IMG/VR virus record: IMGVR_UViG_3300020472_000012
Span: 32,001 to 96,000 of that record
Strand: one strand, 5' to 3'
DNA: 64,000 nt
Source: a virus
The notes under the pieces were generated by a model. That model had not been told where the DNA came from. It ran no database searches and saw nothing but the letters and a program-made list of their open reading frames with translations. Below, one piece after another: positions 26,693-52,932 of this stretch (within the stretch, counting starts at the first letter, position 1; each line of letters begins with the position of its first letter). A program made the translations under genes and the position numbers.

Positions 26693-26720
26693 TTGACAAA
26701 TCCAGAATCTATGAGATAAT
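26693..26720 (+). promoter_or_regulatory. Sigma70-type promoter (16-bp spacer, extended -10), leaderless
   Basis: TTGACA-N16-GATAAT with TGn; ATG 6 nt downstream. Confidence 0.75.
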
Positions 26721-26726
26721 AATTAT

Positions 26727-27023
26727 ATGAGTGATATAAAGTATAAATTTAACGAACCCAAACTATTGAAAGAAATAGCAGATTATGTAACTACTACCTA
26801 TGAACAACATTATGGTGGTGGTAAATATCAGGCAACTGATATGATAATTGACTCTGGACATGGTGAGGGTTTTTCAGTAGGTAATATTATGAAGTATGCA
26901 ATGAGATATGGTAAGAAAGGTGGTAAGAATCGTCAAGACTTGCTTAAGATTGTACATTATTCTCTTATTGCTTTATATAATCATGATGAAACATCAAGTA
27001 GTGAGGTAAAAAATGAATCTTAG
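26727..27023 (+). CDS. DUF3310-like protein
   Basis: QHY, GFSVGNIMKYAMRYGKK, DLLK. Confidence 0.8.
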   Translation: MSDIKYKFNEPKLLKEIADYVTTTYEQHYGGGKYQATDMIIDSGHGEGFSVGNIMKYAMRYGKKGGKNRQDLLKIVHYSLIALYNHDETSSSEVKNES

Positions 27024-27681
27024 TGATGATACTCTTGAAGTCCTAGACAATTTTTCAGATATTAACTCTGGAATTACTGTTAGGGTGGGGCAAGAGTTAA
27101 AAACAATTTCCCCAATGAAAAACATTTTTGGTACAGCCAAAATATCTGAGAACTTTGATAAAGAGTTTTCGATATATGACTTATCAGAATTTCTTGCAAC
27201 TTTATCGTTGTTCGATGCACCAACTTATGAGTTTGGTGAGAAAGAAGTTGTAGTTAGTGAAGGTGGTAATAAAGCAAGGTATGTGTATGCAGACCCTTCA
27301 ATGATTATTACTCCAGAGAAAGATATAACAATGCCTAATCCAGAGATTGTATTTGAATTAGATAGTAATACTCTAAGTAAAGTACAAAAGGCTGCAAATG
27401 TTCTATCGTTGCCAGACTTAGTTTTGGAATCAGATGGTACAATTGTTCTTCTTGCAGTAAGAGATAGGAAACTAACTGACTCAAGTAATGAGTTTGGTGA
27501 GAAGATTGCAGATGGTGATGGTAGTGTCTATTCAATGAACTTCAAGATAGAGAACTTGAAAGTATTGGATGATGATTATACAGTGTATGTATCATCAAAA
27601 GGTATTTCACACTTTGTTTCAAAGAATAAAGGTGTAGAATATTTCATTGCATTAGAACCAGATTCAAAATATGGGGCATAA
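27013..27681 (+). CDS. gp45: Sliding clamp
   Basis: LDNFSDINSG, IYDLSEFL, YFIALE. Confidence 0.95.
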   Translation: MNLSDDTLEVLDNFSDINSGITVRVGQELKTISPMKNIFGTAKISENFDKEFSIYDLSEFLATLSLFDAPTYEFGEKEVVVSEGGNKARYVYADPSMIITPEKDITMPNPEIVFELDSNTLSKVQKAANVLSLPDLVLESDGTIVLLAVRDRKLTDSSNEFGEKIADGDGSVYSMNFKIENLKVLDDDYTVYVSSKGISHFVSKNKGVEYFIALEPDSKYGA

Positions 27682-27693
27682 CTCATATAAATA

Positions 27694-27813
27694 ATGAATG
27701 TAGATACTAAGACATTGGTATTAAGGGCTGCAAGACCAACTCTCTCATCTAGGGGTTTTGTTCAGTTTGATAAGGTGGGTTATCAGACTTCTTTAATTCG
27801 AGATATATTATGA
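27694..27813 (+). CDS. Possible 39-aa uORF coupled to gp44 (region also forms a hairpin)
   Basis: MNVDTKTLVLRAARP...; ATGA overlap with gp44; TATAAATA at 27686. Confidence 0.35.
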   Translation: MNVDTKTLVLRAARPTLSSRGFVQFDKVGYQTSLIRDIL

Positions 27814-28742
27814 CAGAAGAATTTTTATGGGTAGAGAAGTATCGTCCAAAAACTATTGAGGATTGTGTACTTCCATCACAAATCAAACAAACCTTTTTTG
27901 ACTTAAAAGGTGAAATTCCAAATATGATTCTTAGTGGTTCTGCTGGAACTGGTAAGACTACTGTTGCACGAGCATTGTGTGAACAAGTTGGTGCAGATTG
28001 GATTATCATTAATGGTTCAGAAGAGAGTGGTATTGATGTTCTTAGAACAAAGATTAAAAACTTTGCTTCTACTGTGTCGTTGGGTGGTGGAAACAAAGTT
28101 GTTATTCTCGATGAAGCAGATTATCTAAATCCACAATCAACCCAACCAGCATTGAGAGGATTCATCGAAGAGTTCCATAAGAACTGTAGATTTATCCTAA
28201 CATGCAACTTCAAGAACAGAATAATACAACCTTTGCATTCAAGATGCACTGTAATAGACTTTAGAATACCAGCTAATGAAAGACCAAGACTCGCATCTGT
28301 ATTCATGGCAAGATTAATGACAATCTTAACTGAGGAAGGTGTGAAGTGGAATACAGAAGTATTACAAGAACTGGTAATGAAATACTTTCCAGACTTTAGA
28401 AGAACTATAAATGAACTACAGAGATATGGAACTAGTGGTGAGATTGATGTAGGTATCTTAACTAATGTCCAAGAAGAAAGTTTAAAAGAACTAATGTCTC
28501 ATCTTAAAACCAAAAGGTTTACTGATATGAGACGATGGGTTGCAATGAATGTTGATAACGACCCAGTAATGCTATATAGAAAGTTGTATGATAGTTTATA
28601 TGAAACTGTCGATAAATCAACAATCCCACAAGCAGTTTTAATTATTGCAGATTATAGTTATAAGTCTGCATTTGTAGCCGACCAAGAAATTAACTTGGTT
28701 GCATGTTTAACCGAACTAATGATGGAGTGTAAATTTTCATGA
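27810..28742 (+). CDS. gp44: Clamp loader large subunit
   Basis: LWVEKYRP, GSAGTGKT, DEAD, SRC. Confidence 0.97.
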   Translation: MTEEFLWVEKYRPKTIEDCVLPSQIKQTFFDLKGEIPNMILSGSAGTGKTTVARALCEQVGADWIIINGSEESGIDVLRTKIKNFASTVSLGGGNKVVILDEADYLNPQSTQPALRGFIEEFHKNCRFILTCNFKNRIIQPLHSRCTVIDFRIPANERPRLASVFMARLMTILTEEGVKWNTEVLQELVMKYFPDFRRTINELQRYGTSGEIDVGILTNVQEESLKELMSHLKTKRFTDMRRWVAMNVDNDPVMLYRKLYDSLYETVDKSTIPQAVLIIADYSYKSAFVADQEINLVACLTELMMECKFS

Positions 28743-28906
28743 AACAATTTAAAGAATGGATAAACAGGGACAACAACAAATTTACTTTTGTTGGTGCCTT
28801 CTGTCTATTGGGTATGACAGTTACATGGGGTGATGGTATGGCTGAGTTTGCAACATTTTCAGCAATATTTGTTTTTTGTGTAATTAGAAAAGTGCTAAAT
28901 ATATAA
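28739..28906 (+). CDS. Small two-TM protein, 55 aa (not in ORF track)
   Basis: MKQFKEWINR...FTFVGAFCLLG...; ATGA overlap with gp44. Confidence 0.6.
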   Translation: MKQFKEWINRDNNKFTFVGAFCLLGMTVTWGDGMAEFATFSAIFVFCVIRKVLNI

Positions 28907-28907
28907 T

Positions 28908-29102
28908 ATGGAATACGAACTAGTACATTATATACTTTTAGGTCTCCTTGTTGGACTCGCATATTGGCATGGTCATAAGACTGGAGTCAATGCTGGTGCA
29001 GAAGGAATGTATGAACATTTATATAATAGTGGGACAAGAAAAGAAGATAAGGTTATTGTTGCATTAGAATATGAAGATAGACATTATAAAAAGGATTTTT
29101 AA
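28908..29102 (+). CDS. Small membrane-anchored protein
   Basis: N-terminal TM helix. Confidence 0.7.
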   Translation: MEYELVHYILLGLLVGLAYWHGHKTGVNAGAEGMYEHLYNSGTRKEDKVIVALEYEDRHYKKDF

Positions 29103-29866
29103 TGGAACAACCAACACTATCAAAAGATTTATTTAGAATCAAACTCAATGTTGGGTTAGACTATAGATTTATTGCTGATTGGTGTATAGAACATGAACAT
29201 CATCCATACTTCTCACATGATGAAGATGGGGTTGCAACACCAAATCAATTTAGTGATAATCTAAGGTCATATGTTAGAGGTTCCAAAGAAGGTATAGATT
29301 TTGGTGAAGATGGTGTAGCAGATTTAGAAGAGAAGACTAAAGACATAGAATATTATCATACCTATAATCCATTTTCATTTGGATTAAGACCATTTGCAGA
29401 TTTATACTGGAAGTTAAATGAGTTCTTCTATTCAGACCCACAAGTTAACGAGGCTGGTGAACCATATTACATTCATGGATGGTTTAATGTATATACAAAG
29501 AAAGATGAAGACAATAAAGGGTATGACCACATCCCTTGGCACAAACATATGGAAGTTTATCATCCACATATCTATCATGGATTTTATTGTGCAAATGTAC
29601 AACCTTCTCAAACTTGGTACAGAGAGGGCCCAGAATCTACAGAGGAATCGTGGTTAAAACATACAGACTATGATGATATGATAATATATTCACCATCATC
29701 ATTTGAACATGCATCAACGCCATGGCTTGAAGACAAACCTAGAGTGACGATTGCATTTGACATTATTCCAGAGAGTGTTTATCTCTCAGAACATAATATT
29801 GGTAACTATCAATGGGGATTAGAACCAAGACAATATCAATCAATACCATTTCCTAAATGCATATGA
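29102..29866 (+). CDS. Putative 2OG-Fe(II) oxygenase (HxH type)
   Basis: WHKH, HGFYC, FEHAS, RVTIAFDI. Confidence 0.75.
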   Translation: MEQPTLSKDLFRIKLNVGLDYRFIADWCIEHEHHPYFSHDEDGVATPNQFSDNLRSYVRGSKEGIDFGEDGVADLEEKTKDIEYYHTYNPFSFGLRPFADLYWKLNEFFYSDPQVNEAGEPYYIHGWFNVYTKKDEDNKGYDHIPWHKHMEVYHPHIYHGFYCANVQPSQTWYREGPESTEESWLKHTDYDDMIIYSPSSFEHASTPWLEDKPRVTIAFDIIPESVYLSEHNIGNYQWGLEPRQYQSIPFPKCI

Positions 29867-31128
29867 ACTATTTTCAATACACATTAAATGATTTAGAACA
29901 CAATTCTGCAAAGAAAGAATTCAATTACATTACCTTCTTTGCTGGTGGTGGTGGAAGTTCTTGTGCATATAAACTTGCTGGTGGTGATGTAAGATACATG
30001 AATGAGTTTCAACAGATTCATGTAGATACTTACCTTGCAAACTTTCCTAATACAGTTCATGAATGTAAAGATATAAAACAAGTCACTGGTAAAGATATTT
30101 TAGAAATGACAGGATTACAAAAAGGTGAACTTGATATTATGGATGGTTCTCCACCATGTCCACCATTCTCTATGGCTGGAAAGAAAAGAGAAGGTTGGGG
30201 TAAAGAGAAAGTTGCATATGGAATGAAACAACAGAACATAGAAGACCTTACTTGGGAAATGATTAGAATCGCAGAGGAAGTCATGCCCAAAGTTATAGTA
30301 TGTGAAAATGTGAAAGGTCTTTCTATGGACTATGCAAGAGACCATCTTATTAAGATGATAACAGATTTTGAAAAACTTGGGTATTCAGTTACATGGAAAA
30401 TCATGAAGGGTCATGAACATGGAGTACCACAAAAAAGAGAAAGAGTATTCTTAGTTGGTGTTCGTGATGATGTATTAGATGCAATAGGAATGCCATTTAT
30501 GTGTTTAAGTGGATTGTTTCCAGAGACAACTCCAGAAAGAATATCGATTGGAGAAGCAATTGATGACTTAATAGATGATGAAGAGAATAAGAAGGATGCA
30601 GAATATCTAGTTAATTCAATGAATAATTCATCAAAGTCACATTGGATTAATGGATTTGAGACACATCCAGACCCAGACTATGCACACTGTGGCCCATGTA
30701 AAGGGTTAGATGGTGTTGCAGATATGATGGGAAATCGTCCTTACATATCAATAGGTGATGATATTGTTGGGCCTTGGTTTGAAGAACAAATAGAAAATGG
30801 ACACTTAAAAGAAGAGGATGCAAAACATTCTTATTATATGTCAAGAATTGTTCCAAAACATCTTCCAGCACATTCACTAACTGAACAAGGATGTCAAGAA
30901 AAATTTATGGGTGGTAATCACTTCCACTATAGTGGTAAGAGGATATACACACCAAAAGAAATGGTCAGACTTATGACATTACCAAATGATTATAAGATGA
31001 CTGGGGACTATAACGATAAAGGTGCAAGAATAGGTTTAATGGTTGCACCACTATGTTTGTACTACTTAGTAGAACAAATAAAGGAACAGGTATTAAAGCC
31101 ATGGAATTCACTGCACCAAAAGACTTAG
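29857..31128 (+). CDS. DNA (cytosine-5) methyltransferase
   Basis: Motif I FFAGGGG, IV GSPPCPPFS, VI ENVKG, VIII QKRER. Confidence 0.95.
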   Translation: MHMNYFQYTLNDLEHNSAKKEFNYITFFAGGGGSSCAYKLAGGDVRYMNEFQQIHVDTYLANFPNTVHECKDIKQVTGKDILEMTGLQKGELDIMDGSPPCPPFSMAGKKREGWGKEKVAYGMKQQNIEDLTWEMIRIAEEVMPKVIVCENVKGLSMDYARDHLIKMITDFEKLGYSVTWKIMKGHEHGVPQKRERVFLVGVRDDVLDAIGMPFMCLSGLFPETTPERISIGEAIDDLIDDEENKKDAEYLVNSMNNSSKSHWINGFETHPDPDYAHCGPCKGLDGVADMMGNRPYISIGDDIVGPWFEEQIENGHLKEEDAKHSYYMSRIVPKHLPAHSLTEQGCQEKFMGGNHFHYSGKRIYTPKEMVRLMTLPNDYKMTGDYNDKGARIGLMVAPLCLYYLVEQIKEQVLKPWNSLHQKT

Positions 31129-32102
31129 GTTTTGACGAAACCTTTGAACGATTTAATGGGAAGTTCCTAGATGAAACTTCTTATGATACTGTTGTATCTT
31201 CTATTGGAGTAGAAGAAGATATTATCAAAATCTACAAACCAACTGGTTCATTGTTTGATAAACCATTACTTGCATGTATAGTAAAGAATACCTATCAAGG
31301 TGACACTTACCATCAAGTTAAAGACACTTTGTATTCTATAGATGATACTTCTACCATGAGAGCAAACGCTGCCGGCCCTATCGACCACGAAGAAATGAAA
31401 GCAAAAGGATTGATAGAAGGTAAAGATTATGTTCTAAGAACACCAAATTCATATTATCCATTAAAGAAGAATGGTGAATTCAATCGTATTGCAGAAGCAA
31501 ATGCAATTCATTCTGTCTTTGCTGGATATAAGAGAGGTAGATTTACTGGTATGATAGGATTATCAAACTGGTGTGAAAAGAAATCTAATATAGATAAATG
31601 GAATACAATGAAAAAGATTGCAGTTGTTAACGAACAAGCACTTAAGAAAGGTTGTCCAGATATCTGGAAACTACAAAGAACATATGCAGATGAATGTATA
31701 GAAGAGAAGTATCATTTAGGTGGTGCTCCAATTACTACATTATCTGCAAACAAATATACCAGTGAAGGGACTGCAAAGATGTCTGCACATATTGATGGTA
31801 AAGACCTAGAGTTTGGTATGACTACAATGTGTGTATTCAGATTAGGTAACTTTGGTGGTGCATATCTAACATTCCCAAGATATGGAATTGCAATTGAGGC
31901 TGATGATGGGGATGTATTGATTGCAGATTCAAACGAATTACATGGAGTCACCAAGATAGAAGGTGATGGAATAAGATTATCGTGTGTTGCATACTGTTCA
32001 ACTGATGTTGCTACTAAAGGACAAGGTGGTAAATCAGAGAAGGCAATAGGACAACATGCAAGTAAGTATCAAGAAAAAGGTAGTCTTGACTCATTCTTAT
32101 GA
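31101..32102 (+). CDS. TET/JBP-family 5-methylpyrimidine dioxygenase
   Basis: SAHIDGKD (HxD), GGAYLTFPRYG, LHGVT, RLSCVAY; overlaps C5-MTase; ends GSLDSFL. Confidence 0.85.
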   Translation: MEFTAPKDLGFDETFERFNGKFLDETSYDTVVSSIGVEEDIIKIYKPTGSLFDKPLLACIVKNTYQGDTYHQVKDTLYSIDDTSTMRANAAGPIDHEEMKAKGLIEGKDYVLRTPNSYYPLKKNGEFNRIAEANAIHSVFAGYKRGRFTGMIGLSNWCEKKSNIDKWNTMKKIAVVNEQALKKGCPDIWKLQRTYADECIEEKYHLGGAPITTLSANKYTSEGTAKMSAHIDGKDLEFGMTTMCVFRLGNFGGAYLTFPRYGIAIEADDGDVLIADSNELHGVTKIEGDGIRLSCVAYCSTDVATKGQGGKSEKAIGQHASKYQEKGSLDSFL

Positions 32103-32260
32103 AGAAGATTTGGACTATATGGAAGTATGCAATAGGTAGTTTTTCAGATGAGAAAACAGAAGACTACGATAACCATGTTGCAATAATAAGAACATTTGTT
32201 GTTGGTATTAATGTGATATGTGCATTTTTTATTATGGCAAACATAATACACAATTGGTGA
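32099..32260 (+). CDS. Small membrane protein, 53 aa (not in ORF track)
   Basis: MKKIWTIWKYAIGSFSD...AIIRTFVV...IIHNW; ATGA-coupled to TET. Confidence 0.65.
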   Translation: MKKIWTIWKYAIGSFSDEKTEDYDNHVAIIRTFVVGINVICAFFIMANIIHNW

Positions 32261-32263
32261 TTA

Positions 32264-33058
32264 ATGGATAGATTATACATTCCAACATATGACAGAGTTG
32301 GTAAACAACTTGCATTTGATAGTCTTCCAAATAAATGGAAGGACAAAGCAATATTAGTTGTACATCCAGACGAAGTACATGAGGGTTATCCTACATTATC
32401 ATGTCCAGTTCAAGGGACTGGTATTGCACCAGTTAGAGAATGGATTGCACAACATGGTCAAGGAACTAGATATGGTGTCATAGATGATGACATAGAATTT
32501 GTATATACTAGAAAAGAAGACGAAGAAGGCCCAAGTAATATCAAACTAGATGATAACATGTTTGACTCTATGATTAATATCTTCAATGACTGGATGGATA
32601 TGGGGTATATGCACTGTGGAGCAGATGCATCTTGGAATCCACCTACAAGAGATAAAGACCACAAAGAGTGTGGTAGAATATGTGGTAATGTATTCTATGA
32701 TGGAGAAAGACTACCAGTTGATGATATAGACTGGACTGGATTACCAATTGCAGAAGACTATTATGTCACCTTACAGTTATTAACTATGGGGTTTCCTAAT
32801 ATGATATCTTATAGGGCTAGAGTTAATCCAAATGAAACCCAAGCAAAAGGTGGTTGTTCCACCTTTAGAAGTTTAGAGATTCATAATGAATCTATGAGAG
32901 AATTACAGAGAAGGTTCCCACAATTTGTAAAACTAAGAGAAAAGATTGCAAAGAATAGTGGAGAATGGTCTAATAAAGTGAAACTGGCTGCAACCATTTC
33001 ATGGAAAGAGGCATATAAGTCTTCTCAAGTATCGACAATAACAGATTTTATGGTATAA
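32264..33058 (+). CDS. TET-associated GT-A glycosyltransferase (GREB1/TAGT-like)
   Basis: IPTYDR, VIDDD, EDYYVTLQLL, GGCS; adjacent to TET and C5-MTase. Confidence 0.82.
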   Translation: MDRLYIPTYDRVGKQLAFDSLPNKWKDKAILVVHPDEVHEGYPTLSCPVQGTGIAPVREWIAQHGQGTRYGVIDDDIEFVYTRKEDEEGPSNIKLDDNMFDSMINIFNDWMDMGYMHCGADASWNPPTRDKDHKECGRICGNVFYDGERLPVDDIDWTGLPIAEDYYVTLQLLTMGFPNMISYRARVNPNETQAKGGCSTFRSLEIHNESMRELQRRFPQFVKLREKIAKNSGEWSNKVKLAATISWKEAYKSSQVSTITDFMV

Positions 33059-33059
33059 T
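33032..33059 (+). promoter_or_regulatory. Sigma70-type promoter (16-bp spacer, extended -10), leaderless
   Basis: TCGACA-N16-TATAAT with TGn; ATG 6 nt downstream. Confidence 0.7.
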
Positions 33060-33065
33060 ATTAAT

Positions 33066-33245
33066 ATGAGTGAAAATATAATAGAAATAATTAGAATGTT
33101 CCGAACTCTGGAAACAGAAGATATGGATGTAGTCCTATCTGCACTGAAAGAGATTAAAGACAAGAGGGATGGTGAAATTACTGTGTCGTCTAAGTCTAAT
33201 CGAAATGAGTTTGGAGTACCATTTATAGTGCCACCAAAAGAATGA
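33066..33245 (+). CDS. Small hypothetical protein, 59 aa (not in ORF track)
   Basis: MSENIIEIIRMFR...; ATGA overlap with gp62. Confidence 0.65.
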   Translation: MSENIIEIIRMFRTLETEDMDVVLSALKEIKDKRDGEITVSSKSNRNEFGVPFIVPPKE

Positions 33246-33619
33246 ACCCTTTCGACTTTGTTAATTCAGTAACATTTACAAAGGAAGATATCATGGTAGA
33301 TGATATCTCAGAGAAAGAATACGCTCCTTATATCACAAATAGGACATTATCCTACCATCAAGATTGCATACTCTATGCTAACGAAATGAATCGTAGACAC
33401 CACCTAAATAGTCGTCTTCAATTTCATTATTTCCTAAATACTCTTAGAAAAAGAAAAAGGTTTGCTAAATGGGCAAAACCGAATGTCTTGGACGATATGA
33501 AAGTCATCCAAGAGTATTATGGAGTCTCAAAATCTAAAGCGGAAGATTATATGAAACTTCTTTCTGCAAAAGAAATTGAGGAATTGAAAAACAGAATGAA
33601 AAAAGGTGGGAGACAATAA
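33242..33619 (+). CDS. gp62: Clamp loader small subunit
   Basis: PYITNRTLS, ANEMN, RKRKRFAKW, YYGVS. Confidence 0.93.
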   Translation: MNPFDFVNSVTFTKEDIMVDDISEKEYAPYITNRTLSYHQDCILYANEMNRRHHLNSRLQFHYFLNTLRKRKRFAKWAKPNVLDDMKVIQEYYGVSKSKAEDYMKLLSAKEIEELKNRMKKGGRQ

Positions 33620-33622
33620 ACA

Positions 33623-34021
33623 ATGAGCTACGACCTCTCCGATATGGTAGAGGTAGAGTTGAAAGAATCCGATGACTTTCTAAAGGTCAAAGAGACGCTG
33701 ACACGAATTGGTGTGGCATCTCGTAAAGAAAAGATACTCTATCAATCGTGTCATATCTTACATAAACGAGGAAGATACTATCTTGTACACTTCAAAGAAC
33801 TCTTTGCATTAGATGGAAAAGAGTCTTCTATAGTGGAATCAGATATTGGAAGACGAAATGCAATTGCCAGACTTCTTGAAGAATGGGGATTGATTAAAAT
33901 CATTTCCAACAATGCTGAAACACCACTTGCACCAATGAGTCAGATTAAGGTTTTACCCTATAAAGAAAAAACAGAGTGGGAACTTATTCCGAAATACAAC
34001 ATTGGTGTGGTGAGTAAATGA
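33623..34021 (+). CDS. regA: Translational repressor RegA
   Basis: DDFLKVKETLTRIGV, LYQSCHILHK, VHFKELF. Confidence 0.97.
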   Translation: MSYDLSDMVEVELKESDDFLKVKETLTRIGVASRKEKILYQSCHILHKRGRYYLVHFKELFALDGKESSIVESDIGRRNAIARLLEEWGLIKIISNNAETPLAPMSQIKVLPYKEKTEWELIPKYNIGVVSK

Positions 34022-34887
34022 ATGAACAAGTAAGAGTCATCAAGTTTACTGGAAAGAACAAAAACAAAGACAATGTTCCCAACATGGAGTTAAGGAACAG
34101 AGTCATGAGTAAAGTTTTTAACAGAACAGAAAAAGAAAGAAGAATTCTATTTGCAAAGTGTGCTCAAGCTGCATACTGGAATAAAGCAGATGGAAAAGAA
34201 TTTGGTAAACAGTTTGGATGGAAAGCACATCAGTATATCGATATTGAAGGTGCTCAAGTTCATATTTGGCATGATGCAGAAGACTTAATCATTGCAGCGA
34301 GAGGTACAGAACCTACTCAGATGAATGATATCTATGCAGATTTAGAAATATTCAAATCCGACTCATTCACTGGAGTTGGTCAAATCCATCAAGGATTTAG
34401 AGAAGAAGTAGATAAAGTTTGGGACTCAATTCTTTCCAGAGTAGAAAAGTATGGAAGGAAAGGTAGAGTTGCAAAGAAAATTTGGGTAACAGGACACTCG
34501 CTCGGTGGTGCAATGGCAACACTTATTGCATCTCGTCTTGAGTATGTGAATAAATATGATGTAGATACACTCTACACTTATGGTTCACCTAGAGCGGGTG
34601 GCCCTAAGTTTGCCAAATGGTGCAATACTCATTTGAACCACCAAAGGTTTGTAAACAACAATGATGTTGTACCTTGTGTTCCTTCTGTATTCAGATGGAG
34701 ACACAATGGAAGATGCAAGTACATCAAGTCTGATGGAACAGTAACAGACTTAGGAAGATGGTCGATGGAAAGAATCAAGGACAAAGGGTGGGGACTATTA
34801 ACAACAATAATAAAAGGAAGATTAGACTTTGTTGCAGACCATAATATAGTTGACTATATTAAACATCTGGAAAAGGATAATGCATGA
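34018..34887 (+). CDS. Class 3 lipase (alternative start 34105)
   Basis: RGT, TGHSLGG, YTYGSPR, NNDVVP, DH. Confidence 0.92.
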   Translation: MNEQVRVIKFTGKNKNKDNVPNMELRNRVMSKVFNRTEKERRILFAKCAQAAYWNKADGKEFGKQFGWKAHQYIDIEGAQVHIWHDAEDLIIAARGTEPTQMNDIYADLEIFKSDSFTGVGQIHQGFREEVDKVWDSILSRVEKYGRKGRVAKKIWVTGHSLGGAMATLIASRLEYVNKYDVDTLYTYGSPRAGGPKFAKWCNTHLNHQRFVNNNDVVPCVPSVFRWRHNGRCKYIKSDGTVTDLGRWSMERIKDKGWGLLTTIIKGRLDFVADHNIVDYIKHLEKDNA

Positions 34888-35265: not shown

Positions 35266-35532
35266 ATGTATACATTATTAATACTAACACTTAAATCAAT
35301 CCTATCATCAGTTATAGGAAGTTCTTTCTATAGGTGGTTTCAAACAACAAATTTTGGTATATGGTTCCAAGTTAAACTCGAACAATTCATGTCTTATTTG
35401 TCCGATAAATATGATATAGAACTTGCAAAAAAAGAAGCAAAGTGGAGACAGGATTATCCATTACTTTCTGCAAGAATTGATAAGATGGATAAACGAATTA
35501 AGGAACTAGAAAATGGCAAAAAAACCAGTTGA
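35266..35532 (+). CDS. Hypothetical membrane-anchored protein
   Basis: Hydrophobic N-terminus, C-terminal coiled coil. Confidence 0.7.
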   Translation: MYTLLILTLKSILSSVIGSSFYRWFQTTNFGIWFQVKLEQFMSYLSDKYDIELAKKEAKWRQDYPLLSARIDKMDKRIKELENGKKTS

Positions 35533-36517
35533 CCACTTCAACACTGGGATGTGGACATCCCCTTGGCAACAAGTAAAATCTCTTTGGAACATATCAACCT
35601 CACGAACAAGACCAGACTACAGTCTGGAAGTATTTGGTGATGTTGCATCACAATTCTTTGGTGTTGGTGCATTAGAAAGTAGAAAGTTAGTATACAAATG
35701 GGCAACTAATCCAGAAACAAGACCTATAACAGATGGACATTGGTTACACTCAGAACTATTATGTGACCCAGATTTCCTACAATCTTGTCCAGAAGGTTCT
35801 CTAGGACATGGGTATATGCAGTTTATGGAGTTCTGGCAACCCATCTATGCAAAGGAAGGAGTTGAAGGTGCATATGGTAAGCCTTGGTATAGTGCAAGAC
35901 ACTTTGCAGATGTATCCCACAATCAAGTTAAGAAACGCAAACAAAACAAATTCAGTCCAGACCTTTCAAAACATATTGCAAAAAAAGAACTAAACTACTA
36001 TCTTAGTAACCCTAGAGTACATCCAGATATGAAAAGGGATGTAGAAAATCTAGGAATGTCAAAGGCTTTGAGAATCAGAGTTGGAGATAGACTGATGGGG
36101 ATGCATGACATGTATCATATTTTACTAGGATTTGGTAGAGACCAATTAGGTGAAATGTTAATTCTATGTTGGAATGCAGTGCATTCTGGATATACTGGAT
36201 TACATGTAATCACTTGGTTAACTGCATTTAGAGAATCAATTAAACATAGAACATGGGAACCTCTTAGAATGAGAACCGAAGCATATGAAAATGCAAAAAA
36301 ATCTAAGAACTTATTAGAAGTAAACTATGAAGAAGCACTTCTAACAGACCTAACAAAGTTAAGAAGAAAGTTGGGTATTAAGATGAATAAGTCCTATCAA
36401 AAATTTACTGGTGTAAGACATTATAATACTATTCCATCTAAACAATATAAGATGGAGAGTTGGGAAGAAGGAACTAGACTATATCAGTGTAGTCAAGAGG
36501 GCGATTCGTATAAATAA
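35513..36517 (+). CDS. Coq4-family protein (second copy)
   Basis: CPEGSLGHGYMQFM, HDMYHILLGFGRDQLGE, LRRKLGI. Confidence 0.82.
   Translation: MAKKPVDHFNTGMWTSPWQQVKSLWNISTSRTRPDYSLEVFGDVASQFFGVGALESRKLVYKWATNPETRPITDGHWLHSELLCDPDFLQSCPEGSLGHGYMQFMEFWQPIYAKEGVEGAYGKPWYSARHFADVSHNQVKKRKQNKFSPDLSKHIAKKELNYYLSNPRVHPDMKRDVENLGMSKALRIRVGDRLMGMHDMYHILLGFGRDQLGEMLILCWNAVHSGYTGLHVITWLTAFRESIKHRTWEPLRMRTEAYENAKKSKNLLEVNYEEALLTDLTKLRRKLGIKMNKSYQKFTGVRHYNTIPSKQYKMESWEEGTRLYQCSQEGDSYK
36509..36516 (+). promoter_or_regulatory. T4-type late promoter TATAAATA
   Basis: 9 nt before ATG 36526. Confidence 0.75.
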
Positions 36518-47543: not shown

Positions 47544-50033
47544 ATGCACTTTTATACTAATGTCCAGAGATACAGGAATTGGATTCTTGTAAGAGAATTT
47601 AAGGATGGGGTTAATAAGCCCAGACGAATTCCATATAAACCGACATTATATCTTCCGACCAATAAAGATAGTTCATTCAGAAGTATCAATGGCAAAAACT
47701 TAGAACCCAAGAAATTTACCAACATGAGTGGTGTTAGACCATTCATGGATAAGTATAAGGATGTTGAAGGGTTTGATATCTATGGTTTAGATAGATATGA
47801 ATATGCATGGGTAACAGAAACATTTCCACAAGATATTGAGTGGAGTTTTAGAAATATCAAAGTTATGAACATTGATATTGAGTGTGAATGTGAACATGGA
47901 TTTCCAGAACCTATCGTTGCCCCAGAACCAATCAATGCAATAACATTTAAACTATTTGGTGAACCTACCAAATATGTTTTTGGAACTCAGCCTTGGAATC
48001 ATGGTGATAAGAACATTCGTTACTTTGAATGTAAGAATGAGGTACATCTACTTAAAACATTCCTAGATGAATATCGTAAGGTTATGCCAGATATCATTAC
48101 TGGTTGGAATGTTGAAACATTTGATATTACATATCTGATGAATCGTATTACCAGAATGATTGATAGTAGACATGCAGATATGTTATCGCCTTGGAATATA
48201 ACTTCTTCTAGAGAATGGGAAAGTTTTGGTTTAGGTGGTAATAAACAACAAACTTATGACCTTATGGGTGTAGAAGTTATAGATTACCTACAACTTTATA
48301 AGAAGTTTACATTCAAGAACAGAGATAGTTATCGATTAGAAAACATTGCACAAATTGAACTTGGTGAAGGTAAGTTAGATTATTCAGAGTTTGGTGCAAT
48401 GCATTTGTTCTATAAACAGAACTATCAGAAGTTTTTAGAGTATAATGTTCGTGATGTGGACTTAGTAGAAAGACTTGATGATAAGTTAGGTCTAATGACT
48501 TTAATGATTCAGATGGCTTATACTGCAAAGTGTAACTATAGTGATACTTTTGGACAAGTGAAGTATTGGGATTTACTTATCTGGAATCGATTACGAAAAC
48601 AAAACATTATTATTCCACCAAGACCACATGGAACCAAATCACAAAAGTTTGTTGGTGCATATGTAAAAGAACCACAAGTAGGATTGCATAATTGGGTGGT
48701 ATCATTTGATTTGAATAGTCTATATCCACATTTGATTATGCAGTATAATATCAGTCCAGAGCAATTGGATAAAACTGGTACTCAACATGATATTGATGAA
48801 TTACTTGAAAAGAAAGTAGACTTTGATTATAGTAATCATCTTGCAGTTTGTCCTAATGGTGCAAGATTCAGAAAGAATAGACAGGGATTTCTTCCAGAGA
48901 TTCTTGAATCTCTATATGATGAGAGAGTCATGTGGAAGAACAAGATGATTGAATTGCAAAGAGAATATGAAGATACTGATGATGCAGAACAGAAGAAGTT
49001 TTTAAACAGAGAGATTGCAATTGCACACAACAACCAAATGGTTCGTAAGATTTCTTTGAACAGTGCTTATGGTGCATTGGGTAATCAGTGGTTTAGGTAC
49101 TACGATTTGATGATGGCAGAAGCAGTTACAACTAGTGGTCAACTCGCAATTAAATGGGTTGAACAAGCAGTTAACTCCTATCTAAATGAAGTTCTAGGTA
49201 CAGAGGATGATTATGTTGTTGCAATTGATACTGACTCAATCTATGTACGATTTGATGAATTAGTTAATAGGGTTAATCCAAAGAACCCTATTGATTTCTT
49301 AGACAAGGTTTCTAATGGTAAGATGCAAGAAGTGATTAACCATTGTTATGATGACCTTGCACAATATACAAATGCATTTCAGAATAAGATGGTAATGGGT
49401 AGAGAGGTAATTGCAGATAAAGGTATCTGGACTGCCAAGAAAAGATACATTCTTAATGTACATGACAATGAGGGTGTAAGATTACATGAACCTAAACTTA
49501 AGATGATGGGTATTGAAACTGCAAAGTCTTCTACACCAGCATGGGTTCGTGGTAGATTAGAAGATGCATTGACAGTTGTTATGAAGGGTGATGAAAAACT
49601 TGTACATGAGTTTGTAGAGAATGCAAGAGAAGAATTTAAGAAACAACCAATAGAAGATATTGGTTTCCCTAGAGGAGTGAATGGTGTTGTTGAATATGCA
49701 AATCCAAAAACAATTTACAAGAAAGGAACACCTATTCATGTTCGTGCATCATTATTGTATAACCACCATGTAAAAAAACATGGAAAGGAATTGGTATACC
49801 AGTTAATTAATAATGGTGAGAAAATGAAATTTGTTTACCTTAAAATACCAAATCCTACTGCTGAGAATGTCATTGGTTTTATAAATACTTTACCGAAGGA
49901 GTTTGAATTGGCAAAATACATAGACTATGACTTACAGTTCGAGAAATCATTTGTAGAACCTTTTAAACTTATTCTGGAGAAGATTGGGTGGTCAACAGAA
50001 CCGACATCTTCTTTAGAGGAATTTTTTGGGTAA
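47544..50033 (+). CDS. gp43: Family B DNA polymerase
   Basis: DIE exo, SFDLNSLYP, KISLNSAYG, IDTDS, KKRY; clamp-binding tail SLEEFFG. Confidence 0.98.
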   Translation: MHFYTNVQRYRNWILVREFKDGVNKPRRIPYKPTLYLPTNKDSSFRSINGKNLEPKKFTNMSGVRPFMDKYKDVEGFDIYGLDRYEYAWVTETFPQDIEWSFRNIKVMNIDIECECEHGFPEPIVAPEPINAITFKLFGEPTKYVFGTQPWNHGDKNIRYFECKNEVHLLKTFLDEYRKVMPDIITGWNVETFDITYLMNRITRMIDSRHADMLSPWNITSSREWESFGLGGNKQQTYDLMGVEVIDYLQLYKKFTFKNRDSYRLENIAQIELGEGKLDYSEFGAMHLFYKQNYQKFLEYNVRDVDLVERLDDKLGLMTLMIQMAYTAKCNYSDTFGQVKYWDLLIWNRLRKQNIIIPPRPHGTKSQKFVGAYVKEPQVGLHNWVVSFDLNSLYPHLIMQYNISPEQLDKTGTQHDIDELLEKKVDFDYSNHLAVCPNGARFRKNRQGFLPEILESLYDERVMWKNKMIELQREYEDTDDAEQKKFLNREIAIAHNNQMVRKISLNSAYGALGNQWFRYYDLMMAEAVTTSGQLAIKWVEQAVNSYLNEVLGTEDDYVVAIDTDSIYVRFDELVNRVNPKNPIDFLDKVSNGKMQEVINHCYDDLAQYTNAFQNKMVMGREVIADKGIWTAKKRYILNVHDNEGVRLHEPKLKMMGIETAKSSTPAWVRGRLEDALTVVMKGDEKLVHEFVENAREEFKKQPIEDIGFPRGVNGVVEYANPKTIYKKGTPIHVRASLLYNHHVKKHGKELVYQLINNGEKMKFVYLKIPNPTAENVIGFINTLPKEFELAKYIDYDLQFEKSFVEPFKLILEKIGWSTEPTSSLEEFFG

Positions 50034-50066: not shown

Positions 50067-50483
50067 ATGAACCCACACATTTATAGAGCAGACATAACGA
50101 GAGTTGTAGATGGCGATACATGTGATGTGACACTTCATTTAGGATTTGATATATTATATAAAGGTAGAGTAAGGCTGACTGGAATTGATACACCAGAATC
50201 TAGAACCAGAGACCTTGAAGAAAAGAAATTTGGACTTGCATCCAAAGAATACTTCAAGGAATGGGTTGCAAGATTTGATTCTGTATTAGTTGAGTCAACT
50301 GAGAAAGGTAAGTTTGGTAGAATACTTGGTAGGATTTATAACCCAGATATGTCTGAATGTTATAACGACAAGAGTATAGAAGACCATCATGCAGTACCTT
50401 ATAATGGTGAAAACAAAGACCTAGTAGAGTCACAACATATGGCCAACAGAGAATGGTTGACAGAACAAGGACTCGTGGTATAA
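50067..50483 (+). CDS. Thermonuclease (SNase-like)
   Basis: RVVDGDT, RLTGIDTPE, GKFGRILG. Confidence 0.92.
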   Translation: MNPHIYRADITRVVDGDTCDVTLHLGFDILYKGRVRLTGIDTPESRTRDLEEKKFGLASKEYFKEWVARFDSVLVESTEKGKFGRILGRIYNPDMSECYNDKSIEDHHAVPYNGENKDLVESQHMANREWLTEQGLVV

Positions 50484-51557: not shown

Positions 51558-52932
51558 GTTAGAATTATTAATACTTAAGAATCTCTTTACGAGTGATGAA
51601 TACATTCGTAAGGTGATTCCATATGTTAGGGATGAATTCTTTTCTGAGAGAGAAGAGAGATTAATCTTTGTTAATATTAAAGAATACTTTGAGAAGTATA
51701 ATAAGAATCCAACTCATGAAGCATTAACAATTCAAATGAATGAGGCAAGTGGTCTCAATCAAGATGAACTATCCAGTGCATTACACATTGTATCTCAATG
51801 TAAATCATCAATAGAAGAAACACCACACGAATTTCTATTAGATGAAACAGAGAAATGGTGTAAAGACAGAGCAGTTTATAATGCAGTAATGGATTCTATT
51901 ACCATCTTAGATAAGAATTCAAAAAGAGATAAGGGTGAGATTCCAGAGTTACTTAAGGATGCACTTTCAGTATCTTTTGACCAACATATTGGTCATGATT
52001 GGATGGAAAATGCAGATGCAAGGTATGAATTTTATCATACAGAAGAAGAAAAGATTCCATTTGATTTAGATTTACTTAATAAGATTACAAAGGGTGGAAT
52101 GCCCAACAAGACTTTGAATATTATAATGGCTGGAACTGGGGTAGGTAAATCCTTGTTCATGTGTCATTGTGCAGCCAACAATCTCATGATGGGTAAGAAT
52201 GTACTTTACATATCTATGGAAATGAGTGAGGAAAAGATTGCAGAAAGAATTGATGCAAACTTAATGAATATTCCATTACAAGAACTTTCAGATTTACCTA
52301 AACCGATGTATGATAAGAAGATTAAATCTATTAGGGATAAGACAGTTGGAAGGTTAGTGGTTAAGGAATACCCAACAGCAGCTGCACATACTGGACATTT
52401 TAGACATCTATTACAAGAGTTAAATCTTAAGAAAGACTTTGTTCCAGATGTAATCTATATTGATTATCTAAACATATGTGCATCATCAAGAATCAAGCCT
52501 GGAAGTAATGCAAACACATATACTTATGTTAAGAGTATTGCAGAAGAGGTTAGAGGTCTTGCAGTAGAATACGATATTCCAGTTATGAGTGCAACTCAAA
52601 CAAATAGAACTGGATTTGTTTCTACAGATGTAGGATTAGAAGATACATCAGAATCCTTTGGATTACCAGCAACTGCTGATTTGATGATTGCATTGATATC
52701 AACAGAAGAACTGGAAGACCTTGACCAGATAATGGTTAAACAATTAAAGAACAGATATAATGACCCATCATACTACAGAAGGTTTGTAGTTGGTGTAGAT
52801 AGAAGTCGTATGAAGTTGTATGATTGTGAACAATCTGCACAAGATGAGTTACATGATTCTGGGCCAGCTTTCGACAACTCTGATACTGGAAAAAGGATAT
52901 CAGAAGAGAAAACAGATGGTTGGAACATATAA
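51547..52932 (+). CDS. gp41: Replicative DnaB-like helicase
   Basis: [27 protein letters not shown]. Confidence 0.97.

What the first reader, a model, noticed from the sequence alone, without database searches (positions are those of the whole stretch)
29857..33058. Cytosine hypermodification pathway (C5-MTase, TET/JBP, glycosyltransferase) inserted in the replisome operon
Seen: a C5-MTase, a TET/JBP dioxygenase (HxD...H...R) and a GT-A glycosyltransferase are tightly packed (one small membrane ORF between the last two) between clamp-loader genes gp44 and gp62. Established: phage C5-MT/TET pairs make 5mC then 5hmC post-replicatively, with GpC preference reported by Burke et al. 2021, and TET-associated GTs glycosylate 5hmC. 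Inference: this T4-like phage makes sequence-specific glycosyl-5hmC after replication, unlike T4's pre-replicative dCMP hydroxymethylase route.
Basis: partly seen in the sequence, partly recalled or inferred. Interest (0 to 1): 0.8.

Follow-up and report, generated by a model that had tools for sequence, protein, structure and literature searches.

The report
Clamp-tailed cytosine hypermodification genes in phage
An uncultured marine T4-like phage carries a published type of three-enzyme pathway (methylate cytosine, hydroxylate it, add a sugar) between its clamp-loader genes. The new point is that the hydroxylase, and less surely the sugar enzyme, end in the peptide its DNA polymerase uses to hold the sliding clamp.

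Summary
Between gp44 (27810-28742) and gp62 (33242-33619) lie a C5 cytosine methyltransferase (29857-31128), a TET/JBP dioxygenase (31101-32102), a 53-aa membrane ORF and a TAGT-family GT-A glycosyltransferase (32264-33058). Three further ORFs lie upstream, one with a 2OG-oxygenase-like fold.

By gene context in relatives and an insert in the methylase's DNA-recognition domain, the pair looks like Burke's GpC-specific clade I/A.

- **Methylase:** its closest solved relative is the carboxymethyltransferase SpCmoX. It has Leu where CmoX needs Arg350, and no CmoA gene was found, so methyl transfer is likely.
- **Variable slot:** among about 80 IMG/VR relatives the methylase-TET pair is constant. 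The slot between TET and gp62 swaps tailoring genes.
- **Shared tail:** TET ends GSLDSFL, the polymerase SSLEEFFG and a separate N6/N4 DNA methylase SSLEDFF. The glycosyltransferase ends STITDFMV, a weaker match. The C5 methylase has no such tail.
- **Docking model:** it places the TET tail on gp45 (ipSAE 0.71, best control 0.00). Similar complexes are solved, so this shows likeness only.

This scan has already noted such tails in at least 8 other genomes. I found no paper describing them.

The parts
27013..27681 (+). gp45 sliding clamp, the proposed docking platform
   Evidence: phrog_223 at 3.6e-69 and PF09116. Predicted interface residues are 32, 35-39, 101-108, 178, 197-198, 211 and 213-217. 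Most of these are invariant or nearly so among 13 relatives.
27810..28742 (+). gp44 clamp-loader large subunit
   Evidence: phrog_168 at 9e-123 and PF21328 Gp44_lid. It is 62% identical to the gp44 of Methylophilales phage Melnitz and 61% to that of Pelagibacter phage Mosig.
28739..29102 (+). Two small ORFs (55 and 64 aa) of unknown function
   Evidence: No Pfam or PHROG match. The 64-aa ORF is conserved with the 254-aa ORF in all relatives that have the cassette between gp44 and gp62.
29102..29866 (+). 254-aa protein with a 2OG-oxygenase or cupin-like fold. It is probably a resident gene of the gp44-gp62 junction. A role in the pathway is not shown.
   Evidence: Sequence evidence is weak: phrog_81 at 7e-4. 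ESM Atlas look-alikes are PF13759 cyanophage 2OG-Fe(II) oxygenases, score 0.96. The model (pLDDT 83) matches Fe/2OG oxygenases at E about 1e-4 to 1e-5 and TM 0.35-0.47. His147, His149 and His203 are invariant. The ORF is absent from relatives whose MT-TET pair sits elsewhere. Mosig has an Fe2OG dioxygenase at the same junction, with no detectable sequence similarity to this ORF.
29857..31128 (+). DNA cytosine C5-methyltransferase, predicted to be GpC-specific and SAM-dependent
   Evidence: PF00145 at 5e-49. The best solved relative is SpCmoX, PDB 8YF3, at 3e-70. It has the SPPC motif but Leu at the Arg350 position in every TET-linked copy. It has no polymerase-like tail.
31101..32102 (+). TET/JBP (5mYOX) dioxygenase, predicted to convert 5mC to 5hmC
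   Evidence: PF12851 above the cut-off. H230, D232, H281, R87 and Y298 are invariant, and R292 and V296 nearly so. The fold matches CMD1, TET2, CcTet and NgTET1.
32079..32099 (+). C-terminal tail GSLDSFL of TET, a putative gp45-binding motif
   Evidence: G-x-L-x-x-F is invariant in 24 tails while the linker before it varies. The tail has low pLDDT in the model. It docks on gp45 with ipSAE 0.71 against a best control of 0.00.
32099..32260 (+). 53-aa ORF with a hydrophobic stretch, probably not part of the pathway
   Evidence: phrog_1679 at 5e-18. Its only homologue among the relatives lies far from the cassette, in L005.
32264..33058 (+). TAGT-family GT-A glycosyltransferase, predicted to put the first sugar on 5hmC
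   Evidence: PF20691 above the cut-off and phrog_842 at 2e-36. R12, D74-D75-D76 and E164-D165-Y166 fit the published R...DDD...EDY/F signature.
33032..33055 (+). C-terminal tail STITDFMV of the glycosyltransferase, a weaker candidate gp45-binding motif
   Evidence: The tail is almost unchanged in glycosyltransferases whose cores are only 35% identical. It ranks only 7th of 138 ORF ends against the polymerase tail. These bases also form a promoter-like site.
33066..33245 (+). 59-aa ORF of unknown function before gp62
   Evidence: No family match. Its stop overlaps the gp62 start.
33242..33619 (+). gp62 clamp-loader small subunit
   Evidence: PF16790 at 9e-14 and phrog_225 at 1e-39.
47544..50033 (+). 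Family B DNA polymerase (gp43), ending SSLEEFFG. It is the reference clamp-binding tail.
   Evidence: PF00136 and PF03104. C-terminus. The T4 gp43 C-terminus EKASLDFLFG binds gp45 (PMC6212786).
52820..53800 (+). N6/N4 DNA methyltransferase ending SSLEDFF, a further DNA-modifying enzyme with the tail
   Evidence: PF01555 at 2e-19, and phrog_498 and phrog_12517. It is the best match to the polymerase tail among all ORF ends. Only 2 of 35,627 hexamers in the proteome score as high.

Best explanation
This is a post-replicative cytosine hypermodification pathway of the published phage C5-MT / 5mYOX(TET) / glycosyltransferase kind. It sits in the gp45-gp44-gp62-regA operon of a pelagimyophage- or Melnitz-like marine phage.

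Proposed steps, all inferred from homology:
1. The methylase uses SAM to make 5mC at GpC sites. That would be at most about 13% of the phage's cytosines, or about 5% if GpCA is excluded as in Burke's clade I.
2. The Fe(II)/2OG TET hydroxylates 5mC to 5hmC.
3. The single GT-A enzyme moves a host-supplied nucleotide sugar onto the 5hmC hydroxyl. The sugar is unknown.

A further step is inferred from sequence and one docking model. TET ends in the short acidic-hydrophobic peptide that the phage's own polymerase carries at the position where T4 and RB69 polymerases bind the sliding clamp. The separate N6/N4 DNA methylase does too, and the glycosyltransferase less surely. These enzymes probably dock on gp45 clamps left on newly made phage DNA. 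That would aim modification at phage rather than host DNA and couple it to replication.

My odds are about 0.85 for the pathway, 0.65 for the clamp tether of TET and 0.5 for the glycosyltransferase.
For: - **Family assignments:** all three are above curated cut-offs, with catalytic residues present.
- **TET fold:** it matches DNA 5mC dioxygenases.
- **Methylase-TET coupling:** the two genes overlap, and 57 of 62 relatives keep them adjacent.
- **Methyl rather than carboxymethyl:** every TET-linked methylase has Leu and SPPCPPFS. The CmoA-linked CmoX enzymes of phages S-B43 and S-CRM01 have Arg350, SPPCSAFS and an 8-aa insert. No CmoA, ParB or ThyA/ThyX gene was found in the record.
- **Clade:** context and the insert in the methylase's DNA-recognition domain fit Burke's experimentally active clade I/A.
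- **Motif is rare and terminal:** in the phage's own proteome (138 ORFs, 36,317 aa) the pattern [STN][LI][DETGN]xF[FLMI] occurs 5 times. Four of these lie 0-1 residue from a C-terminus: the polymerase, the N6/N4 methylase, TET and the glycosyltransferase.
- **Same pattern in relatives:** in 85 loci, 128 of 149 occurrences are C-terminal. Nearly all are on TETs, polymerases, TAGT glycosyltransferases and unknown tailoring proteins.
- **TET and polymerase tails match:** the hexamers agree at 4-6 of 6 positions in 29 of 32 loci that hold both.
- **Literature:** the T4 gp43 tail and the T4 ligase LDFLF loop bind gp45 (PMC6212786).
- **Docking model:** the gp45 plus TET-tail model supports binding but does not show it. 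ipSAE is 0.71 and the best of 3 controls is 0.00. That mark was reached by 58 of 80 solved complexes and 2 of 110 mismatched pairs, and these counts hold only roughly because my own alignments were used. The runs agree in at least 83% of contacts and the partner's pLDDT is 43. Contacts are Leu36 and Phe39 of the tail with the interdomain loop and C-terminal strand of gp45.
Against: - Nothing was measured. Chemistry, site preference and sugar are all inferred from homologues.
- I could not align directly to Burke's sequences, because no supplement is held. The clade assignment therefore rests on context.
- Leu at the cofactor-selecting position is neither the Asn of M.HhaI nor the Arg of CmoX.
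- The record is 63% complete, so a dCMP hydroxymethylase or CmoA gene could lie in the missing part.
- The motif pattern was written after seeing the four tails.
- With the polymerase hexamer as an a priori query, the TET tail scores 16, a level that chance would give in about 0.3 ORF ends per genome. The glycosyltransferase tail ranks 7th and is not distinctive on its own.
- The glycosyltransferase tail codons overlap a promoter-like site, which could add DNA-level constraint.
- Clamp-peptide complexes from RB69 and T4 are solved, so the docking pass may reflect likeness only.
- The C5-methylase, the first enzyme of the pathway, has no tail.
Confidence: 0.72

Rival explanations
1. The dioxygenase acts on thymine, as JBP and the phage clade C 5mYOX enzymes do. 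The glycosyltransferase would then make a base-J-like glucosyl-5hmU, and the methylase would be an unrelated anti-restriction methylase.
For: Phage thymine dioxygenases exist and often sit beside glycosyltransferases (PMC13229309). Pyle 2023 estimates that most 5mYOX contigs lack a nearby methylase. The three most distant TET relatives here (about 50% identity) have no methylase in the fetched upstream sequence.
Against: The methylase overlaps the TET gene, and all 57 relatives with at least 60% TET identity keep them adjacent. Published thymine-dioxygenase clusters lack an immediately neighbouring C5-MT. The context matches the 5mC-active clade I/A. No ParB gene was found.
Confidence: 0.08
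2. The 'methylase' is a CmoX-type carboxymethyltransferase that uses carboxy-SAM to make 5-carboxymethylcytosine. The TET and the glycosyltransferase would then act on something else.
For: The closest solved structure by far is SpCmoX, 8YF3, at E 3e-70. The enzyme shares the SPPC motif of that family, and CmoX is also GC-specific.
Against: The defining Arg350 is Leu here and in every TET-linked copy. The SpCmoX R350N mutant was inactive with either cofactor. No CmoA or amide-ligase gene is nearby, and no CmoA was found in the record. Burke's clade I/II enzymes made 5mC in E. coli, a host that supplies carboxy-SAM through its own CmoA.
Confidence: 0.04
3. The pathway is as proposed, but the shared C-terminal peptides do not bind the clamp. 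They could bind another common partner, or be a degradation or localisation signal, or reflect chance together with DNA-level constraints.
For: No binding was measured. The TET and glycosyltransferase tails are not statistically distinctive in a single-genome scan. The glycosyltransferase tail overlaps a promoter-like site. The docking pass may come from likeness to solved structures.
Against: The motif sits at the extreme C-terminus of the polymerase, where T4 and RB69 bind gp45. It is invariant in TET tails across relatives down to 50% identity despite variable linkers. It is almost confined to C-termini of polymerases and DNA-modifying enzymes in 85 loci.
Confidence: 0.25

Closest known systems
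Phage C5-MT / TET (5mYOX) / glycosyltransferase gene clusters from metaviromes: Burke et al. 2021 (PMC8256090), clade I/A contigs 43 and 14; Pyle et al. 2023 (bioRxiv 10.1101/2023.12.21.572611)
   Same: Same three enzyme families in the same order, methylase then TET then glycosyltransferase. HxD-H-R and the V-x-Y pocket are conserved in TET. The GT-A signature R...DDD...EDY/F is present. Close relatives sit in the HSP20-redoxin context of clade I/A. Sister loci show the published subclasses: two glycosyltransferases, epimerase plus glycosyltransferase, or P-loop kinase.
   Different: Here there is a single GT-A with no epimerase or second glycosyltransferase. The cassette lies between gp44 and gp62. 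The cited papers list clamp genes only as neighbours, and I found no mention of polymerase-like tails in them.
SpCmoX, the DNA cytosine C5-carboxymethyltransferase of Synechococcus phage S-B43 (PDB 8YF3; PMC12783734)
   Same: Same phage-specific branch of C5-MT homologues (E 3e-70), with the SPPC motif. CmoX has GC-site specificity. In phage S-CRM01 the CmoA-CmoX pair also sits in the replisome operon, between gp62 and regA.
   Different: Arg350 is replaced by Leu. There is no 8-aa insert after motif IV. The DNA-recognition domain is longer. The partner gene is a TET, not CmoA or an amide ligase.
gp45-binding peptides of T4 and RB69: the gp43 C-terminus EKASLDFLFG and the T4 ligase loop LDFLF (PMC6212786). 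From my own knowledge, also T4 gp55 and gp33.
   Same: A short Ser/Thr-Leu-acidic-x-Phe-hydrophobic peptide at the extreme C-terminus after a flexible linker. It is predicted to sit in the pocket formed by the interdomain loop and the C-terminal strand of gp45.
   Different: Here it is carried by DNA-modifying enzymes rather than by replication or transcription proteins. Binding has not been measured.
T4 cytosine modification: gp42 dCMP hydroxymethylase followed by alpha- and beta-glucosyltransferases
   Same: The end product is glycosylated 5hmC. The glycosyltransferase is related to the GT-A enzymes beside gene 42 in T-even-like phages, with 28-30% identity.
   Different: T4 makes 5hmC before replication at the nucleotide level and replaces all cytosines. 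Here 5hmC would be made on DNA at GpC sites only. No ThyA-type gene was found.

Membership tests
Phage post-replicative C5-MT/5mYOX/GT cytosine hypermodification cluster (Burke 2021; Pyle 2023) | C5-MT with the catalytic Cys of motif IV and intact motifs I, VI, VIII, IX and X | tested here: met
   PF00145 matches profile positions 1-323 of 324. Motifs read FFAGGGGSS, GSPPCPPFS, CENV, QKRER, TPKEMVRLMTLP and IGLMVAP.
Phage post-replicative C5-MT/5mYOX/GT cytosine hypermodification cluster (Burke 2021; Pyle 2023) | TET/JBP dioxygenase with HxD...H iron ligands, two 2OG-binding Arg residues and the V-x-Y pocket | tested here: met
   PF12851 at 48.9 bits against a cut-off of 34.9. H230, D232, H281, R87 and Y298 are invariant, and R292 and V296 nearly so. 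The fold matches TET2, NgTET1 and CMD1.
Phage post-replicative C5-MT/5mYOX/GT cytosine hypermodification cluster (Burke 2021; Pyle 2023) | C5-MT and TET on the same strand and no more than five genes apart | tested here: met
   The genes overlap by 28-76 nt. They are adjacent in 57 of 62 relatives.
Phage post-replicative C5-MT/5mYOX/GT cytosine hypermodification cluster (Burke 2021; Pyle 2023) | GT-A glycosyltransferase with the R...DDD...EDY/F active-site signature | tested here: met
   PF20691 is above the cut-off. R12, DDD74-76 and EDY164-166 are conserved in relatives. No structure was predicted for it.
Phage post-replicative C5-MT/5mYOX/GT cytosine hypermodification cluster (Burke 2021; Pyle 2023) | Formation of 5mC, 5hmC and glycosyl-5hmC on DNA | not testable with these tools
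   This needs co-expression and nucleoside LC-MS.
Burke clade I/A (GpC[C/T/G]-specific) | Insert in the methylase's DNA-recognition domain relative to clade II, and an HSP20-redoxin neighbourhood | tested here: inconclusive
   There is a 22-aa insert relative to Melnitz-type enzymes, which follow a DNA polymerase as in clade II. Relatives at 76-79% identity lie in an HSP20-redoxin context. Burke's sequences could not be aligned, because no supplement is held.
CmoX DNA cytosine C5-carboxymethyltransferases (PMC12783734) | SPPC motif | tested here: met
   GSPPC at motif IV.
CmoX DNA cytosine C5-carboxymethyltransferases (PMC12783734) | Arg350 binding the carboxylate of carboxy-SAM | tested here: not met
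   Leu occupies this position in the window and in all 13 TET-linked copies aligned. Arg occupies it in S-B43 and S-CRM01.
CmoX DNA cytosine C5-carboxymethyltransferases (PMC12783734) | Phage-encoded CmoA (carboxy-SAM synthase) nearby | tested here: not met
   TIGR00740 has no match in the 114-kb record, which is 63% complete. No such gene lies in the cassette.
Phage thymine dioxygenases (5mYOX clades C1/C2; PMC13229309) | No immediately neighbouring C5-MT; often a ParB activator | tested here: not met
   A C5-MT overlaps the TET gene. No ParB_N match was found in the record.
T4-type pre-replicative 5hmC pathway | Thymidylate-synthase-family dCMP hydroxymethylase | tested here: not met
   PF00303 and PF02511 have no match in the record. 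The record is incomplete, so absence from the phage is not proven.
gp45 sliding-clamp-binding C-terminal peptides | Acidic-hydrophobic motif at the extreme C-terminus, resembling the phage's own polymerase tail | tested here: met
   The polymerase ends SLEEFFG, the N6/N4 methylase SLEDFF, TET SLDSFL and the glycosyltransferase TITDFMV. The glycosyltransferase match is weak.
gp45 sliding-clamp-binding C-terminal peptides | Physical binding to the clamp's hydrophobic pocket | not testable with these tools
   There is only a model: ipSAE 0.71 against a best control of 0.00. The mark was reached by 58 of 80 solved complexes and 2 of 110 mismatched pairs. Contact agreement is at least 83% and partner pLDDT is 43. 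Similar complexes are solved, so it shows likeness only.

The most novel reading that the evidence does not exclude
DNA hypermodification in T4-like phages is tethered to the replisome. The TET dioxygenase, the first-sugar glycosyltransferase, some unknown tailoring proteins and an N6/N4 DNA methylase would all ride on gp45 sliding clamps through polymerase-like C-terminal tails. Epigenetic 'writing' would then be aimed at freshly replicated phage DNA. This would be a viral counterpart of DNMT1-PCNA coupling in eukaryotes. It could also explain why these cassettes keep landing in the gp45-gp44-gp62-regA-gp43 operon.
Probability: 0.6. Interest if true: 0.7.

Novelty: new member of a known kind. 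Interest (0 to 1): 0.55.

Why it matters
The cassette itself adds one more member to a published class. Three points go further.

1. **A swap-in slot.** In this marine phage lineage the methylase-TET core is fixed, while the slot after it swaps in different tailoring genes. These include GT-A, GT-B (T4 alpha-glucosyltransferase-like), GT8, epimerase, cytidylyltransferase, and P-loop kinase with unknown partners. That gives a natural series for studying how DNA decorations diversify under host defence pressure.

2. **A sequence signature.** One residue, with linked features, separates methyl-transferring from carboxymethyl-transferring members of a single phage C5-MT family. The split matches the partner gene, TET or CmoA. 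This could serve for annotation.

3. **A targeting mechanism.** If the polymerase-like tails do bind gp45, they would explain how post-replicative enzymes find phage DNA quickly and spare host DNA. They would also matter for reconstitution work, because the published TET43, GT43-I and GT14 enzymes were purified with C-terminal His tags. The cultured relative Melnitz offers a test system.

Tried and rejected
- **DNA-level search:** megablast of the region against cultured phages found only a 59-nt gp44 match. Comparison had to be at protein level.
- **The 254-aa ORF:** it had no hit in cultured phages, no PDB sequence hit and no similarity to the Mosig dioxygenase at the same junction. A large protein search found only close relatives without Pfam domains. 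Its role stays open.
- **TET and glycosyltransferase:** neither had a usable PDB sequence hit. The glycosyltransferase fold was not modelled.
- **Burke's supplement:** it is not held, so I could not align directly to contigs 43, 14 or 88.
- **Insertion borders:** the small ORFs flanking the cassette share no similarity with the small ORFs between gp44 and gp62 in Melnitz, S-CRM01 or DLP6. The borders of the insertion could not be defined.
- **A possible gp33 control:** an 83-aa ORF ending KLDDFLISNQK looked like a gp33-type positive control, but PHROGs did not support that identity. I left it out.
- **Promoter scan:** the total of promoter-like sites was no higher than in shuffled sequence, 36 against 39.7. 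Only two sites at gene junctions are mentioned, as leads.
- **Unknown partners of the P-loop kinase:** the 330-425-aa proteins in sister loci matched no Pfam or PHROG family.
- **Dinucleotide statistics:** GpC observed/expected is 0.78 and CpG is 0.33. I did not treat these as evidence for or against the target site.

Full report
**What is there.** The window is part of a 114-kb IMG/VR virus record estimated to be 63% complete. By gp44 identity its nearest cultured relatives are Methylophilales phage Melnitz (62%) and Pelagibacter phage Mosig (61%), both Kyanoviridae. On the + strand the order is as follows:

| Gene | Coordinates |
|---|---|
| DUF3310 protein | 26727-27023 |
| gp45 | 27013-27681 |
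| gp44 | 27810-28742 |
| two small ORFs | 28739-29102 |
| 254-aa ORF | 29102-29866 |
| C5-methyltransferase | 29857-31128 |
| TET/JBP dioxygenase | 31053 or 31101 to 32102 |
| 53-aa ORF with a hydrophobic stretch | 32099-32260 |
| TAGT glycosyltransferase | 32264-33058 |
| 59-aa ORF | 33066-33245 |
| gp62 | 33242-33619 |
| regA | 33623-34021 |
| class 3 lipase | 34018-34887 |

All genes abut or overlap, and no + strand terminator-like site was found. It left out the four extra ORFs inside the gp44-gp62 interval.

**The three enzymes.**
- The methylase matches PF00145 over the whole profile (5e-49) and has motifs I, IV, VI, VIII, IX and X.
- The dioxygenase passes the Tet_JBP cut-off. In an alignment reaching 20% identity, H230, D232, H281, R87 and Y298 are invariant, and R292 and V296 nearly so. 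These are the residues Burke et al. list for phage TETs.
- The TET model has pLDDT 93.9. Its listed PDB hits down to rank 22 include CMD1, human TET2, CcTet and NgTET1 at E 1e-9 to 1e-11, ahead of ALKBH1 and FTO at 1e-6.
- Gene callers and homologue alignments favour the ATG at 31101, giving 333 aa.
- The glycosyltransferase passes the TAGT cut-off and matches phrog_842. It carries R12, DDD74-76 and EDY166, the signature Pyle et al. give for phage GT-A enzymes that glycosylate 5hmC.

**Methyl or carboxymethyl.** The closest solved structure to the methylase, by a wide margin (3e-70 against 2e-14 for M.HhaI), is SpCmoX. This is the cytosine C5-carboxymethyltransferase of Synechococcus phage S-B43 (PMC12783734). 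CmoX is defined by an SPPC motif plus Arg350, which holds the carboxylate of carboxy-SAM, and it comes with a phage CmoA.
- The window enzyme has SPPC but Leu at the Arg350 position.
- In an alignment of 14 TET-linked copies and the two CmoA-linked enzymes (S-B43, S-CRM01), the split is clean. The TET-linked copies read ARIGLMVAP and SPPCPPFS. The CmoA-linked copies read ER(V/I)GRMVPP and SPPCSAFS, with an 8-aa insert.
- No CmoA was found in the record.
- Burke's TET-linked methylases made 5mC in E. coli, a host that supplies carboxy-SAM through its own CmoA.

I therefore read this enzyme as a SAM-dependent methylase. Both branches of the family that have been mapped act at GpC, so GpC is the predicted site. 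In the 114-kb record, GpC holds 13.4% of cytosines and GpC followed by C, G or T holds 5.1%. Modification would be partial, unlike in T4.

**Cytosine or thymine.** Phage thymine dioxygenases are now known, and published clusters of them lack an immediately adjacent C5-MT. Here the methylase overlaps TET. Of 62 IMG/VR relatives with enough upstream sequence, 57 keep the pair adjacent, including all with at least 60% TET identity. No ParB gene was found. No ThyA or ThyX homologue was found either, so there is no sign of a T4-like pre-replicative route. The record is incomplete, so this is not proof.

**Comparison with relatives and with the literature.** The methylase-TET core sits at three different places in related genomes.
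1. Between gp44 and gp62, always preceded by the 64-aa and 254-aa ORFs, in the window and about 18 loci.
2. After HSP20 and a redoxin, and upstream of lysozyme and the polymerase, in loci with 76-79% identical proteins. This is Burke's stated context for clade I/A.
3. Directly after the polymerase, in Melnitz. This is Burke's clade II/B context.

The window methylase also has a 22-aa insert in its DNA-recognition domain relative to the Melnitz type, as Burke reports for clade I. Other T4-like phages have far less between gp44 and gp62:
- Melnitz, S-CRM01 and DLP6 have only a small ORF there.
- Mosig has an Fe2OG dioxygenase there.
- S-CRM01 carries its CmoA-CmoX pair between gp62 and regA.

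The replisome operon is thus a repeated landing place for cytosine C5 modification genes.

In the sister loci, the 1.4-3.4 kb between TET and gp62 varies widely. It holds TAGT alone or doubled, GT8 plus TAGT, GT8 or TAGT plus a T4-alpha-glucosyltransferase-like enzyme and a cytidylyltransferase, epimerase plus TAGT, or a P-loop kinase with unknown 330-425-aa proteins. These are the subclasses described by Burke and Pyle. Burke lists the clamp loader A subunit among neighbours, and Pyle lists gp45 and clamp genes. The cassette is therefore a new member of a known kind. With a single GT-A and no epimerase, it is a minimal form, and its sugar donor must come from the host.

**The 254-aa ORF.** It has only close relatives and no Pfam domain.
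- ESM Atlas look-alikes belong to the cyanophage 2OG-FeII_Oxy_5 family.
- Its model (pLDDT 83) matches Fe/2OG oxygenases weakly, TM 0.35-0.47.
- It travels with the gp44-gp62 position, not with the methylase-TET pair.

I treat it as a resident junction gene whose role in modification is unproven.

**Polymerase-like tails.** While aligning the glycosyltransferases I noticed that TET ends GSLDSFL and the glycosyltransferase ends STITDFMV. The phage's family B polymerase (47544-50033) ends SSLEEFFG. A 326-aa N6/N4 DNA methyltransferase (52820-53800; PF01555) ends SSLEDFF.
- The pattern [STN][LI][DETGN]xF[FLMI] occurs five times in the 36,317-residue proteome. Four of these are at the C-termini of these proteins.
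- In 85 loci (273,543 residues), 128 of 149 occurrences lie within 4 residues of a C-terminus. They fall on about 73 TETs, 36 polymerases, the gp62-proximal TAGT glycosyltransferases, a few unknown tailoring proteins and the TET of Stenotrophomonas phage DLP6.
- In TET, G-x-L-x-x-F is invariant down to 50% identity while the linker before it varies. The tail has low confidence in the model, as expected for a flexible arm.
- TET and polymerase hexamers agree at 4-6 of 6 positions in 29 of 32 loci that hold both.
- Similar tails occur on some much more distant TET homologues.
- In T4, the gp43 C-terminus EKASLDFLFG and the ligase loop LDFLF bind gp45 (PMC6212786).
- A docking run of gp45 with the last 40 residues of TET supports binding but does not show it. 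ipSAE is 0.71 and the best of three controls is 0.00. The mark was reached by 58 of 80 solved complexes and 2 of 110 mismatched pairs, and these counts hold only roughly because my own alignments were used. The runs agree in at least 83% of contacts and the partner's pLDDT is 43. Leu36 and Phe39 contact the interdomain loop (101-108) and the C-terminal strand (211-217) of gp45. Clamp-peptide complexes are solved, so this shows likeness only.

Cautions on the tails:
- The pattern was written after the fact.
- With the polymerase hexamer as an a priori query, the N6/N4 methylase is striking (score 27). TET is modest, at a score expected in about 0.3 ORF ends by chance. The glycosyltransferase ranks only 7th.
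- The glycosyltransferase tail codons coincide with a promoter-like site (TCGACA-16-TATAAT) just before the 59-aa ORF and gp62.
- The C5 methylase has no tail.

**Status of the tail idea.** I found no mention of such tails in Burke 2021, Pyle 2023 or O'Toole 2026. After reaching the idea independently, I looked up this scan's earlier notes. The same reading has been made on at least 8 other genomes, mostly for thymine-type pathways. What this genome adds is a cytosine-type pathway in which the methylase lacks the tail, and a further tailed enzyme, the N6/N4 methylase.

**Verdict.** The cassette is a new member of a published class, and the replisome tether is a plausible, testable and apparently unpublished mechanism.

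Noticed in passing
window 52820-53800: An N6/N4 DNA methyltransferase (PF01555) ends SSLEDFF. Of all ORF ends in the genome, this is the closest match to the polymerase tail SSLEEFFG. Its ORF start overlaps the preceding helicase-sized gene, so the true start is probably later.
   Followed up: partly
window 33032-33059: A promoter-like site (TCGACA, 16 nt, TATAAT, with TG) lies in the last codons of the glycosyltransferase, just before the 59-aa ORF and gp62. A similar site at 26693-26720 precedes the DUF3310-gp45 genes. It could restore gp62 and regA expression downstream of the inserted genes.
   Followed up: no
L004-L031, between TET and gp62 (e.g. L004:9047-11402, L011:9125-10830, L019:5974-9284): This is a highly variable tailoring slot. 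It holds TAGT, T4-alpha-glucosyltransferase-like, GT8, epimerase and cytidylyltransferase genes, or a P-loop kinase 3 paired with 330-425-aa proteins that match no Pfam or PHROG family. The 425-aa protein of L019 ends NLEEFF, another polymerase-like tail.
   Followed up: partly
L077:3700-9017 and L078: In the most distant relatives, three ORFs (249, 417 and 295 aa, two of which had no Pfam match) separate the methylase from TET. The 249-aa protein ends TLEAFI, another tail-like end.
   Followed up: no
L087 (Synechococcus phage S-CRM01), 2315-4152: A CmoA-CmoX (carboxymethylcytosine) pair sits between gp62 and regA. The same replisome operon therefore hosts a different cytosine C5 modification system in a cyanophage.
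   Followed up: partly
whole record G000 (114,373 bases): CpG is strongly depleted (observed/expected 0.33) and GpC mildly depleted (0.78). GCA makes up 62% of GCN sites counted on both strands.
   Followed up: no
window 53800-54444 and 29102-29866: There are two 2OG-Fe(II)-oxygenase-like genes besides TET. One is a clear PF13759 member next to the N6/N4 methylase. The other is the divergent 254-aa ORF upstream of the C5 methylase. Substrates are unknown.
   Followed up: partly
window 34018-34887, 35513-36517 and 50067-50483: A class 3 lipase follows regA, a Coq4-family protein lies a little further on, and a staphylococcal-nuclease-like endonuclease follows the polymerase. All sit within the replication module.
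   Followed up: no
L021:3412-6754: In sister phages the methylase-TET pair is preceded by a CHASE2 adenylate/guanylate cyclase, HSP20 and a redoxin.
   Followed up: no
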